A DNA stretch of 64,000 nucleotides, from assembly GCF_030013205.1 (NCBI RefSeq), contig NZ_CP122648.1; one strand, written 5' to 3'. Positions 21,301 to 24,300 of this stretch are shown in pieces. The DNA is from Escherichia coli (GTDB lineage: Bacteria > Pseudomonadota > Gammaproteobacteria > Enterobacterales > Enterobacteriaceae). The position numbers were made by a program. Each line of letters opens with the position of its first letter. The first letter of the stretch is position 1.

Positions 21301-24300
21301 CAATGCCATGAGCCGCCAGATCGCTGATAATGCCGTATATTCCTGCTTTGTTGGCGATATCAACACCGACAGTCGGGCTATCGAGAATCAACAGTCGTGG
21401 CCCAATCGCCAGCCATTTGGCGATCGATACTCGCTGCGCGTTACCCCCAGAAAGCGTATTCACCGGGAGATGTGGGTCAGAGACTTTGATGGTCAATGCC
21501 TTGATTAGCCTGTCCACCAGGTCACGCACTTTAGCTTCACTCAGAAAGCCGAAGCGATCTTTTACCTTGTGAAAAACAGTGCTAATGATGTTGTCTTCAA
21601 TAGATTGCGCCATCACCAAACCGCGCGACATGCGATCTTCCGAAACATAACCAATACCGTGGCGGATGGCGTCCTGGTTACTATGCAGTGTAACCAGCTG
21701 GCCGTTGATGAGGATCTCGCCAGCATCCGGTCGGGTCATACCAAACAGACTCAGACATAATTCCGTGCGCCCCGCACCAAGCAGGCCAACAATCGACACC
21801 ACTTCGCCCGCTTCCACCCGCAAGTTAATATTTTGATATTCCCCATGACGACTTAAATTACGCACCTCCAGCACTGGGATGCTGGATTTTCCCTGCCACA
21901 ACTCTCGCACCTGATATTCAAACTCCTGGCCGGTCATCAGGAAACCGAGTTGTTTTGTGGTCATCTCTGCAGCCGGAAAGGTCCCGACCAGCTCACCATC
22001 TTTCAACACTGAAATACGGTCGGAAACTTCCATCACCTCTTCCAGACGATGACTGACGAAGACCACGCAGATCCCGCGTTCCCGCAATTGATGCACCACC
22101 TGTAATAACCCTTGCACTTCCTGATGGGTCAGCGAAGCGGTTGGTTCATCCATCACGATCAACCGTGCGTCCTGCGCCAGTGCACGGCAAATAGCCACCA
22201 GCTGACAGCGGGCAATTGAAAGCTCAGAAACGAGCGTATCCAGTGGCAATGTGACGTTAATACTGGTCATTGCCGCCTGCGCCACCTCACGCAGACGACG
22301 GCGGTTAACAAACAGACCGTGGTGATAGTGATTCACGGCGATATTCTCCCAGACACTCAGGTTAGGAAATAAAGAGAGGTCCTGATAAATCACCTGAATC
22401 CCCTGCGCCACCGAAGCGGCGGGTGTCAGCTTTGACCAGTTTTTCCCACCAAGCGTAATTTCCGCTCCCTCATCCGGGCGATAAACTCCGGACATAATTT
22501 TAATCAACGTCGATTTACCACAGCCGTTTTGCCCGGCAAGACAGTGCACTTCACCCGACATAAAGTCGAGAGAAACATCGCGCAGCGCTCGCGTGGCATG
22601 AAACGTTTTGTTGATATGACGAAGGGAAAGGAAGGTTTCCATAACATCCCCTGGCAATAAGAATCGGGGCTTTCGCCCCGAAGAAATGGATTAATAAAGT
22701 GAGTCGATATTGTCTTTGTTGACCAGCAGTACCTTATGGAAACGGATAATTCGCTTATCTATATCTACGTCGGCCTTCCCCAGATTCTGCATTTCTAATC
22801 CAGGTTTGATCTCTTCACCCTTCAGCAACGTGCTGGCGACGGCCGCGAGTGCGTAACCTGCAGAGGCCGGATCGTAACTAATCCCTTCGGTGATATCACC
22901 ACTTTTAATCAGTGATGCCGCCTGTGAAGGGATCATCATGCCATAGACTGCGACTTTATTTTTCGCCCGTTTCTCTTTCACTGCACGTCCCGCGCCAATC
23001 GGACCGTTTGAACCAAAGGAGACAACCGCTTTCAAGTCAGGATAGGTTTTCATCAGGTCCAGTGTGGTACGACGTGAGTCATCCACACTCTCGGCAACCG
23101 GCATGCGGCGGGTAACTTCATGCATATCCGGGTAATGCTCTTTCTGGTATTTCACCAGCAAGTCAGCCCATAAGTTATGCTGCGGCACGGTCAAACTACC
23201 CACGTAAATCACATAGCCGCCCTTGCCACCCATGCGTTTCGCCATATGTTCAACATATTCAGCGGCAAATTTTTCGTTATCAATGATTTCGATATCCCAG
23301 TTAGCACTTGGCTGACCGGGGGATTCGTTGGTCAGAACCACAATTCCGGCATCTCGCGCTTTTTTGAATACCGGTTCCAGCACGTTGGCATCGTTTGGCA
23401 CAATTGTAATTGCATTAACCTTACGGGCGATTAAATCCTCAATGATTTTAACCTGTTGCGGAGCATCAGTACTTGAAGGCCCCACCTGTGACGCATTAAC
23501 ACCAAAGGCTTTACCCGCCTCGACCACACCTTCGCCCATGCGATTAAACCACGGCATACCATCGACTTTAGAGATATTCACCACGACTTTTTCCGCTGCC
23601 TGGAGCGGCGCAGAAATTAGCGCAGCGCCTAATAACAGCGAAGACACCATATTGATAACAAAACGTTTATTCATCATTTCAGCCTCATTGCAGGGTAGTC
23701 AGGAAGTGTTCGCCCAAATTAGCGCGCTGGAGAGAATAAGAATTTTCGAATATTTTTATGCAGAATAAACAGCCCTATTTCAGGCAGCTATTAAAAATTT
23801 GGTTATAAATATGGACAAAACGGGCAGTAACAATAAGTGTGACAATCATCACGTAAAAAATAGCAAAATAAATAAAATTAGCGATACTTTATGTTTGTGA
23901 GCTTATTTCGCGTAGAAAAATAGTTATCTACACAACGTCAATAAGGGCATATTCTTCAAAGATAACGTCCATTTCGGGTGAATAGCATCCTTCTGCCTGG
24001 AAAAAACGACGGTGTTCATTACGCCAATATTCAAGACTGAGGTCACCTTCACCTTCCTTACGGGCAAGCTCCGCGGTGACATCAGAAAAGCGCAGTAAAT
24101 GCAGGCCAATCACTCTGATAACACAGACAGGCTCACCACGGCTATTTTCTACAATCTTATACTCACCAATCAGCGGAAATGCGTTGTCTTCAATACATCC
24201 CGCCAGCGAACCACAGGAAGCTGTTTTAACACCAGTCGCAATCAACGTTGCGAGGTGATCGGCCAACGCTGCTGAATCGCCAAAAGTACAAAAGGAAGCA

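What the first reader, a model, noticed from the sequence alone, without database searches (positions are those of the whole stretch)
22642..22693. Stem-loop with U-tract between the binding-protein gene and the ATPase gene
On the operon strand the 48-nt spacer reads UAA-UCCAUUUCU-UCGGGGC-GAAA-GCCCCGA-UUCUUAUU-GCCAGGGGAUGUU-AUG. That is a 7-bp GC stem with a GAAA loop followed by a U-rich run, placed just before the ATPase SD. This geometry is typical of partial terminators that let the binding protein be made in excess of the membrane components.
Basis: seen in the sequence. Interest (0 to 1): 0.4.

Follow-up and report, generated by a model that had tools for sequence, protein, structure and literature searches.

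The report
Leaky terminator hairpin after binding-protein gene
A short, very stable RNA hairpin followed by a U-rich run sits between the sugar-binding-protein gene and the ATPase gene of E. coli's accessory L-arabinose ABC transporter (Aau); it is real and kept by selection, but it is an ordinary example of a well-known device that lets cells make more binding protein than membrane transporter.

Summary
The operon is Aau (Z0415-Z0419, O-island 17), the AraC-dependent accessory L-arabinose ABC importer, present in about 41% of complete E. coli genomes.

The single sequence is weak evidence; comparison is strong. In 81 homologous loci, 89% of the SBP-ATPase spacers hold a perfect hairpin of -10 kcal/mol or better, against 5% of control windows. 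The hairpin sequences differ between lineages, and compensatory changes occur in four lineages. The U-tract is not universal: 26 of 81 loci have one, and Klebsiella, Franconibacter and Yersinia do not.

Published data show that the downstream genes are co-induced by arabinose, so transcription reads through. The paralogous K-12 mglB-mglA hairpin has a strong mapped RNA 3' end.

Best reading: a leaky intrinsic terminator that also protects the 3' end, raising binding-protein mRNA over translocator mRNA. How much is termination and how much is decay protection remains open. The interrupted U-tract and the 9-nt stop-to-stem gap both predict leakiness.

This is a new member of a known kind, of low interest.

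The parts
22691..23674 (-). Periplasmic substrate-binding protein gene (Aau SBP, Z0415/ECs_0374 homologue), first gene of the operon; stop codon TAA at 22693-22691
   Evidence: ORF list; RefSeq annotation of an identical strain; CUT2-type sugar SBP by NCBIfam, below every equivalog cut-off; identified as Z0415 through the Sakai annotation and PMC11127945
22682..22690 (-). 9-nt pyrimidine-rich linker UCCAUUUCU between the stop codon and the hairpin
   Evidence: Sequence. The stop-to-stem gap is short here and in homologues (median 14 nt, IQR 10-23). This is the range in which ribosomes repress termination in E. coli (PMC4824070).
22664..22681 (-). Hairpin UCGGGGC-GAAA-GCCCCGA: 5' arm 22681-22675, GNRA loop 22674-22671, 3' arm 22670-22664; dG -14.3 kcal/mol
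   Evidence: One copy per window and per genome. Identical over 60 nt in 1753 of 2217 E. coli genomes that carry it. The homologous CGGGGC(G)...(C)GCCCCG hairpin is present in Klebsiella, Franconibacter and Symbiopectobacterium.
22656..22663 (-). Interrupted U-rich tract UUCUUAUU (6 U of 8) directly after the stem
   Evidence: It is not conserved in the nearest relatives, and a tract with at least 5 U in 8 is present in only 26 of 81 homologous spacers.
22647..22652 (-). Shine-Dalgarno AGGGGA of the ATPase gene, 11 nt after the stem and 4 nt before the ATG
   Evidence: Sequence; CCAGGGG is invariant in the close relatives
21158..22642 (-). ABC ATPase gene (Z0416-7/ECs_0375 homologue), start ATG 22642-22640
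   Evidence: The start agrees with RefSeq and with the N-termini of homologues.
20194..21165 (-). Permease 1 (Z0418 homologue); overlaps the ATPase gene by 8 nt
19241..20197 (-). Permease 2 (Z0419 homologue); overlaps permease 1 by 4 nt (RefSeq start)
23675..23927 (-). Upstream region holding the L-arabinose/AraC-dependent promoter of the operon
   Evidence: The reporter fusion with about 300 bp upstream of Z0415 is arabinose- and AraC-dependent (PMC11127945). The sequence has TTTTGTCCATA at 23820-23810, which resembles an AraC half-site (the resemblance is recalled, not tested).

Best explanation
The hairpin with its U-rich tail is a constitutive, leaky intrinsic terminator at the one uncoupled junction of the Aau operon, and the same hairpin then caps the short transcript. 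Transcription starts at the AraC-dependent promoter upstream of the binding-protein gene. Some polymerases release the RNA in or just after UUCUUAUU (about 22655-22660), giving a monocistronic binding-protein mRNA that ends in a GNRA-capped 7-bp G-C stem resistant to 3' exonucleases. The remaining polymerases read through and make the full mRNA, on which the ATPase is translated from its own SD and the two permeases by overlap coupling. Read-through transcripts cut downstream would be trimmed back to the same hairpin. The net effect is more binding-protein mRNA than translocator mRNA. Two features predict leakiness: the interrupted U-tract, and the 9-nt distance from the stop codon, which lets the trailing ribosome hinder hairpin folding.

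Shown here: the anatomy, selection for a hairpin at this junction, and read-through. Inferred: termination at this site, protection of the 3' end, and the resulting ratio.
For: - Anatomy matches the terminator pattern: 7 pairs, 6 G-C, loop of 4, 6 U of 8; hairpin formation probability about 0.98.
- A d'Aubenton-Carafa-type score computed from a formula I recalled from memory is positive for aau (13.3) and for mglB (4.5), but negative for the Klebsiella, Franconibacter and araF hairpins.
- It is rare: only 3 hairpins in 128 kb of strand are this stable and have at least 6 of 8 U.
- In 81 homologous loci, 89% of spacers have a perfect hairpin of -10 kcal/mol or better against 5.3% of matched control windows. 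In 66 loci none of 25 controls reaches the observed value.
- Terminator-like sites occur in 26 of 81 spacers against about 0.07 expected per spacer.
- Compensatory changes: Pasteurellaceae 6 of 9 pairs, covariation 0.475 against 0.151 in shuffles (0 of 500 as high), and slid controls collapse. Yersinia 5 of 13 pairs. Morganellaceae/Budviciaceae 6 of 14. Vibrionaceae/Morganella 2 of 8.
- Geometry is conserved: the stem starts a median 14 nt after the stop and ends a median 24 nt before the start, leaving the SD free.
- The other junctions of the operon overlap.
- No promoter-like site lies between the SBP start and the ATPase gene. Z0417 (43x) and Z0418 (7x) are induced by arabinose together with Z0415 (26.5x) (PMC11127945), so transcription reads through.
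- A microarray study lists only ECs0374 of this operon as significantly changed (PMC2241611; a weak hint that the SBP transcript is in excess).
- A paralogue behaves this way: the K-12 mglB-mglA spacer has a 9-bp hairpin with tail UUAUUGUAU, and Term-seq maps a strong primary 3' end 5 nt after its stem (PMC7815308 supplement).
- The concept is documented: PMC9045158.
Against: - There are no 3'-end, abundance or half-life data for this locus.
- The U-tract is absent in the relatives that keep the homologous hairpin (Klebsiella, Franconibacter), in all Yersinia loci, and in 55 of 81 loci overall. So the conserved function needs only the hairpin.
- A terminator 8-9 bp after a stop codon was almost fully repressed by the ribosome in E. 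coli (PMC4824070), so real termination here may be very low.
- The RNA-seq fold change does not fall across the hairpin (43x downstream against 26.5x upstream). Fold change is not abundance, and that strain has a broken ATPase gene.
- Statistics from the single sequence are weak.
Confidence: 0.6

Rival explanations
1. The hairpin is only a protective 3' stem-loop, acting through differential mRNA decay as at malE-malF. The operon is transcribed essentially in full. Endonuclease cuts in the poorly translated ATPase and permease part are followed by 3'-to-5' exonuclease digestion that stops at the hairpin, so the binding-protein segment outlives the rest. The U-rich tail would be incidental.
For: - The hairpin is near-universal at this junction while the U-tract is optional: 55 of 81 loci lack one, including the closest relatives with the homologous stem.
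- The paralogous araF-araG hairpin has no U-tract, and the ytfQ-ytfR and alsB-alsA spacers carry REP-like palindromes.
- The 9-nt stop-to-stem distance should suppress termination (PMC4824070).
- The mechanism is documented in E. coli, with the substrate-binding gene invariably the stabilised one in five ABC operons (PMC5927463).
Against: - The E. coli version has a tail of 6 U in 8 and meets the terminator pattern.
- Terminator-like tails are about fivefold enriched over background across the family (26 observed against about 6 expected).
- The similar mglB hairpin yields a sharp 3' end 5 nt after the stem, which fits termination as well as trimming.
- The two mechanisms are not exclusive.
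Confidence: 0.25
2. The spacer controls translation of the ATPase gene. The SD and AUG (22662-22635) pair with the last 17 codons of the binding-protein gene (22743-22713), with the hairpin nested inside. The ATPase would then be translated only when ribosomes finishing the upstream gene open the helix.
For: - The long-range helix is predicted with probability about 0.98 in 141-nt and 181-nt contexts, and the 181-nt fold has z -2.85 (2 of 200 shuffles).
- It is predicted in the consensus of 8 close relatives.
Against: - Synonymous recoding of the upstream codons gives equal or stronger pairing in 14% of variants and equal or lower ensemble energy in 25%. The pairing therefore largely follows from the conserved F-H-K-V-L-L-V and M-E codons.
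- It is not seen in Klebsiella or Franconibacter when they are folded alone, and across 75 homologous loci native pairing equals displaced-coding controls (0.28 against 0.27, p = 0.79).
- Third-codon positions there show no extra conservation (0.51 against 0.49 overall).
Confidence: 0.05
3. The hairpin is a chance palindrome or an evolutionary leftover with no effect on expression.
For: - Terminator-like patterns occur at chance frequency in this region (8 found against 8.2 expected).
- The 81-nt MFE is not significant.
- The operon is decaying in several lineages.
Against: - Hairpins are present at the same junction in 89% of 81 homologous loci against 5% of controls.
- Covariation is seen in four lineages.
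- The sequence is invariant in 79% of the E. coli genomes that carry it, and the common variant lies outside the stem.
Confidence: 0.05
4. The hairpin is the terminator of a regulatory small RNA cut from the 3' end of the binding-protein mRNA, as SroC is from gltI and RbsZ from rbsB.
For: - A hairpin with a U-rich tail at the 3' end of an SBP gene inside an ABC operon is the anatomy of SroC and RbsZ (PMC9299463).
- The RNA would be arabinose-induced.
Against: - The last 25-40 codons show no extra synonymous-site conservation (0.45-0.48 against 0.49 overall).
- The hairpin sequence turns over between genera.
- The U-tail is interrupted and short, which by my recollection of the literature is poor for Hfq binding.
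- No Rfam match.
Confidence: 0.04

Closest known systems
Internal intrinsic terminators downstream of SBP genes in ABC-importer operons (Wu et al. 2022, Ruminiclostridium cellulolyticum; PMC9045158)
   Same: A single stem-loop directly after a 5' SBP gene, with no antiterminator partner, a sub-canonical U-tract and constitutive partial read-through. It acts both through termination efficiency and through 3'-end stability. The authors also predict at least 15 such stem-loops in E. coli K-12.
   Different: Shown experimentally in Gram-positive clostridia, where stems are longer (optimum 11 bp). Here the stem is 7 bp in an E. coli accessory operon and nothing has been measured.
mglB-mglA intercistronic hairpin of E. 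coli K-12 (paralogous CUT2 sugar ABC operon)
   Same: Same gene order, a 60-nt spacer, and a perfect G-C-rich hairpin (9 bp, -16.5 kcal/mol) with an interrupted U tail (UUAUUGUAU) ahead of the ATPase SD. A strong Term-seq 3' end lies 5 nt after the stem.
   Different: The sequence is unrelated and the regulon is different (GalS/CRP, from my own knowledge). The 3' end there has been measured; here it has not.
malE-malF REP protective structure and other differential-decay boundaries (described in Dar and Sorek 2018, PMC5927463)
   Same: A stable structure at the 3' boundary of the SBP cistron that leaves the SBP mRNA more abundant than the mRNA for the membrane components.
   Different: REP is a dispersed repeat family of about 35 nt with no U-tract, and it acts after endonuclease cleavage. 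The aau hairpin is single-copy, shorter, and has a U-tail.
araF-araG hairpin of the canonical arabinose ABC operon (same AraC regulon)
   Same: A hairpin (11 bp, -19.2 kcal/mol) in the 69-nt SBP-ATPase spacer of an arabinose-induced CUT2 operon.
   Different: It has no sense-strand U-tract (tail UGUGAACG). Its U-run is on the opposite strand, where an antisense 3' end is mapped.
3'-derived sRNAs from SBP genes: SroC (gltI) and RbsZ (rbsB) (PMC9299463)
   Same: They end at a hairpin and U-tail located after an SBP gene inside an ABC operon.
   Different: They have conserved functional sequence upstream of the terminator and bind Hfq or ProQ. No such conservation is seen here.

Membership tests
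Intrinsic (Rho-independent) terminator | G+C-rich stem of about 5-14 bp with a loop of 3-8 nt | tested here: met
   7 bp, 6 G-C, GAAA loop, dG -14.3 kcal/mol
Intrinsic (Rho-independent) terminator | U-rich tract of about 7-9 nt immediately 3' of the stem | tested here: met
   UUCUUAUU has 6 U of 8 and passes the scan threshold of 5 in 8. It is interrupted at positions 3 and 6, so a weak terminator is expected (inference from established knowledge).
Intrinsic (Rho-independent) terminator | RNA polymerase releases the transcript there (3' ends in vivo or in vitro) | not testable with these tools
   No Term-seq or Northern data for this locus. The EHEC Term-seq paper has no supplement held as text.
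Internal leaky terminator setting ABC-importer stoichiometry | Lies directly downstream of a 5' SBP gene and upstream of the translocator genes in one operon | tested here: met
Internal leaky terminator setting ABC-importer stoichiometry | Downstream genes are still expressed from the upstream promoter (read-through) | tested here: met
   No promoter-like site in between. Z0417 and Z0418 are co-induced by arabinose with Z0415 (PMC11127945). This is indirect: a second arabinose-responsive promoter is not formally excluded.
Internal leaky terminator setting ABC-importer stoichiometry | SBP transcript in excess over translocator transcripts | not testable with these tools
   Only fold changes are published. 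The one hint is that only ECs0374 was scored as changed in a microarray study.
Internal leaky terminator setting ABC-importer stoichiometry | Single stem-loop without a competing antiterminator structure | tested here: met
   The hairpin is kept in the MFE and centroid folds in 81-, 141- and 181-nt contexts. No riboswitch or leader family in Rfam.
Protective 3' stem-loop (differential operon decay) | Stable structure at the 3' boundary of the stabilised cistron, conserved in relatives | tested here: met
   89% of 81 homologous spacers against 5% of controls; covariation
Protective 3' stem-loop (differential operon decay) | Longer half-life of the upstream segment; dependence on exonucleases and RNase E | not testable with these tools
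   Needs a rifampicin chase and RNase mutants
REP/BIME repeat | Member of a dispersed family with many copies per genome and the REP consensus | tested here: not met
   One place per genome in 2217 genomes and one match in the window at up to 3 mismatches. True REP-like palindromes elsewhere in the window look different.
Regulated attenuator or riboswitch | Match to a curated RNA family or alternative terminator/antiterminator folds | tested here: not met
   Rfam gave only chance-level hits (E 1.2 and 4.1, far below gathering scores)
3'-derived regulatory sRNA (SroC/RbsZ type) | Conserved functional sequence upstream of the terminator beyond coding constraint | tested here: not met
   Synonymous third-position identity in the last 25-40 codons is 0.45-0.48 against 0.49 gene-wide, over 17 orthologues

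The most novel reading that the evidence does not exclude
The hairpin and U-tail define the 3' end of an arabinose-induced regulatory RNA cut from the end of the Z0415 mRNA, as SroC is from gltI and RbsZ from rbsB. A horizontally acquired transporter island would then also feed a small RNA or sponge into the core E. coli network.

A second, less exotic reading is also not excluded. The conserved short stop-to-stem distance may make termination depend on how closely the ribosome follows the polymerase, so the binding-protein to translocator ratio would track translational capacity.
Probability: 0.05. Interest if true: 0.5.

Novelty: new member of a known kind. Interest (0 to 1): 0.2.

Why it matters
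Aau is a recently described fitness factor of enterohaemorrhagic E. coli in the gut (PMC11127945). Its paper does not mention this element. The hairpin probably sets how much high-affinity binding protein is made per membrane transporter. That matters for anyone who measures Aau expression with primers on one side of the spacer, clones the operon, or models arabinose scavenging. More generally, this transporter family gives a clean natural series: the same junction, unrelated hairpins, and U-tracts present or absent. Such a series could help separate termination from decay protection. None of this changes current understanding; it is one more documented instance of a textbook design.

Tried and rejected
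- REP/BIME or other dispersed repeat: rejected, because the element is single-copy.
- Rfam family, riboswitch or leader: nothing found.
- Local SD sequestration by the 5' linker (CAUUUCU with GGGGAUG) or by the U-tail: predicted only weakly, absent from the centroid fold, and replaced by other pairings in longer contexts.
- Long-range pairing of the ATPase RBS with the end of the binding-protein gene: it looked striking but failed the synonymous-codon control, the cross-family control and the wobble-conservation test.
- Second promoter or AraC site in the spacer: the scan found none. By eye, TCCATT in the linker lacks the rest of an AraC half-site.
- Direct transcript data: the EHEC Term-seq paper has no supplement held as text, the Aau paper gives only fold changes, and a search for yahJ/yahK papers found nothing.
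- The single-sequence MFE z-score and the count of terminator-like patterns do not by themselves support the finding.
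Full report
**What is there.** On the minus strand the window reads TAA (22693-22691), UCCAUUUCU, UCGGGGC (22681-22675), GAAA, GCCCCGA (22670-22664), UUCUUAUU (22663-22656), GCC, AGGGGA (22652-22647), UGUU, AUG (22642-22640). The upstream ORF (23674-22691) and the downstream ORF (22642-21158) match RefSeq gene ends in an identical strain. The two permease genes overlap their predecessors by 8 and 4 nt, so this 48-nt spacer is the only uncoupled junction in the operon.

**Which operon.** The window is E. coli. The cluster sits between yahJ and yahK and is present in 2219 of 5426 complete genomes. Through the Sakai locus tags ECs_0374-0377 and a literature search, it is Z0415-Z0419 on O-island 17. 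This is the 'Aau' accessory L-arabinose uptake ABC transporter: induced only by L-arabinose, dependent on AraC, and needed for EHEC persistence in the mouse gut (PMC11127945). That paper does not mention a terminator, hairpin or stem-loop.

**Is it more than chance?** Taken alone, the sequence is only suggestive.
- The scan tool calls the site terminator-like (7 pairs, 6 G-C, loop 4, tail TTCTTATT), but it found 8 such sites in 8.5 kb against 8.2 expected.
- The MFE of an 81-nt window is unremarkable against dinucleotide shuffles (z -0.74).
- The hairpin itself is strong: -14.3 kcal/mol, with its arms paired at about 0.98 probability.
- Only 27 of 5330 48-nt windows in the 64-kb window match its stability, and only three hairpins add at least 6 U in 8.
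- It is single-copy in the window and in every genome, so it is not a REP element. It has no Rfam match.
- In E. coli, 1753 of 2217 carriers are identical over 60 nt. The common variant is a T-to-C change three bases before the ATG, outside the stem.

**Comparative evidence.** I collected 80 homologous loci from other genomes with an alignment of the binding protein and extracted every spacer from the SBP stop to the ATPase start.
- Hairpin frequency: with the E. coli reference locus, 72 of 81 spacers (89%) hold a perfect hairpin of -10 kcal/mol or better, against 5.3% of 2025 length-matched windows from the same loci. In 66 loci none of 25 controls reaches the observed value.
- Sequence turnover: the hairpin sequences are unrelated between lineages, even where the binding proteins are 90% identical (Mangrovibacter).
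- Covariation: within lineages the stems covary. Pasteurellaceae have 6 of 9 pairs with double changes, a covariation score of 0.475 against 0.151 in shuffles (0 of 500 as high), and slid controls collapse. Yersinia has 5 of 13, Providencia/Budvicia/Limnobaculum 6 of 14, and Vibrionaceae/Morganella 2 of 8.
- Geometry: the stem begins a median 14 nt after the stop and ends a median 24 nt before the start codon.

So a hairpin at this junction is under selection.

**The U-tract is a different matter.** Only 26 of 81 spacers meet the threshold of 5 U in 8 (51 meet 4 in 8). That is still about fivefold over background (0.07 expected per spacer), but far from universal. Klebsiella and Franconibacter keep a hairpin homologous to the E. 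coli one (core CGGGGCG...CGCCCCG) but follow it with CUUAACCA or CGCUAACA. Symbiopectobacterium has a U-rich tail. All Yersinia loci lack one. The conserved requirement is the stem, and E. coli carries one of the better tails.

**Read-through.** No promoter-like site lies on the operon strand between the binding-protein start and the ATPase gene. In published RNA-seq, arabinose induces Z0415 26.5-fold, Z0417 (ATPase) 43-fold and Z0418 7-fold, and RT-qPCR confirmed all three (PMC11127945). The element therefore cannot be a full stop. These are fold changes in a strain whose ATPase gene carries a premature stop, so they say nothing about the ratio across the hairpin. One microarray study lists only ECs0374 of the four genes as significantly changed (PMC2241611). 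This is a weak hint that the first cistron is the most abundant.

**Paralogues in K-12.** The five K-12 sugar ABC operons examined (ara, mgl, xyl, ytf, als), all with the binding-protein gene first, have structure in the same spacer:
- araF-araG: an 11-bp hairpin with no U-tract.
- mglB-mglA: a 9-bp hairpin with tail UUAUUGUAU.
- xylF-xylG: an imperfect long hairpin.
- ytfQ-ytfR and alsB-alsA: REP-like palindromes.

For mglB, published Term-seq tables list a strong 'primary' 3' end at 2239314(-), five bases after the stem, in two table entries (PMC7815308 supplement). An E. coli hairpin of the same design as the aau one therefore does mark an RNA end in vivo. Term-seq does not distinguish termination from trimming.

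**Mechanism.** Two documented mechanisms fit.
- Internal leaky terminators after SBP genes set ABC-importer stoichiometry, through termination efficiency and through the stability the stem gives the short transcript. They typically have sub-canonical U-tracts and no antiterminator (PMC9045158).
- Protective 3' stem-loops after endonuclease cleavage stabilise the SBP cistron, as at malE-malF and four other E. coli ABC operons (PMC5927463).

The E. coli element has what both need. A terminator score computed from a formula I recalled from memory is positive for aau and mglB and negative for the Klebsiella, Franconibacter and araF hairpins. Against efficient termination, the U-tract is interrupted and the stem starts only 9 nt after the stop codon. 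In E. coli a terminator 8-9 bp after a stop codon was almost fully repressed by the translating ribosome, and full efficiency needed more than 30 bp (PMC4824070).

My best account is a leaky terminator whose hairpin also protects the 3' end, whichever way that end arises (confidence 0.6). Pure decay protection is the main rival (0.25).

**Leads that failed.** In longer contexts the ATPase SD and AUG are predicted to pair with the last 17 codons of the binding-protein gene (22743-22713 with 22662-22635). The pairing probability is about 0.98, and the 181-nt fold has z -2.85. The pairing also appears in a consensus fold of close relatives. Three controls went against it:
- 14% of synonymous recodings pair as well, and 25% fold as stably.
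- Across 75 homologous loci, native pairing equals displaced-coding controls (0.28 against 0.27, p = 0.79).
- Wobble positions there are no more conserved than elsewhere.

The same wobble result argues against a conserved sRNA seed in the 3' end of the gene, although an SroC- or RbsZ-like product (PMC9299463) is not excluded.

**Verdict.** The element is an undescribed instance, in a medically relevant accessory operon, of a well-known kind. Interest is low (0.2).

Noticed in passing
L034:4985-5182 (Yersinia aldovae) and L028:4940-5226 (Budvicia aquatica): The same SBP-ATPase spacer is enlarged to 198 and 287 nt by an insert. By my recollection it looks like an ERIC/IRU repeat (...GAGCTTACTCAGGTAAGTGATTCGGGTGAGTGAGCG...). 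Several other Yersinia loci (L025, L030, L031, L033) also have 138-260-nt spacers with extra repeat-like sequence after the hairpin.
   Followed up: no
window 42219-42259: A perfect 19-bp inverted repeat (CTGTAAATATCCTGGCATTA-CTA-TAATGCCAGGATATTTACAG, -27.8 kcal/mol), the most stable hairpin in the window. It lies between the convergent core genes ykgG and ykgH and has no U-tract on either strand.
   Followed up: partly
window 22635-22662 with 22713-22743 (minus strand): Predicted long-range helix between the end of the binding-protein coding region and the SD/AUG of the ATPase gene. It is strong in E. coli, but coding constraints explain it and it is not conserved across the family.
   Followed up: yes
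window 1597-1626 and 7803-7832: REP-like palindromes (TGTCGGATGCG...CGCATCCGACA, -19 to -23 kcal/mol). The one at 1626-1597 (minus strand) is followed by TTTATTTC.
   Followed up: no
L082:2115-3100; L086:12400-13578; L001:11636-12606: The Aau operon is damaged in several lineages. The binding-protein gene is frameshifted in O157:H7 DEC4E. The ATPase gene is split or truncated in Sakai/EDL933 (also stated in PMC11127945). Permease 1 is annotated as frameshifted in strain K_EC180, although the window has an intact 323-codon ORF.
   Followed up: partly
window 23810-23820 (minus strand): TTTTGTCCATA lies about 140 nt upstream of the binding-protein start. It resembles the araBAD I1 half-site of AraC (recalled from memory), which fits the published AraC dependence of the promoter.
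   Followed up: no
L087:3071-3139 (K-12 araF-araG spacer): The araF-araG hairpin has its U-run on the antisense side (GGGGAATTTTTCC). Published Term-seq lists an antisense 3' end there (1985131+), so it may stop antisense rather than sense transcription.
   Followed up: no
L002 (SFEK01000152.1): A 4.7-kb contig labelled 'Bacteroidales bacterium' MAG is 99% identical to the E. coli Aau locus. This is most likely a mis-binned E. coli contig.
   Followed up: no
L009:4985-5031 (Candidatus Symbiopectobacterium sp. 'North America'): The hairpin has collapsed to the loop-less palindrome CGGGGCGCCCCG through a deletion of about 7 nt relative to two other Symbiopectobacterium genomes. This may reflect decay in a symbiont genome.
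   Followed up: no
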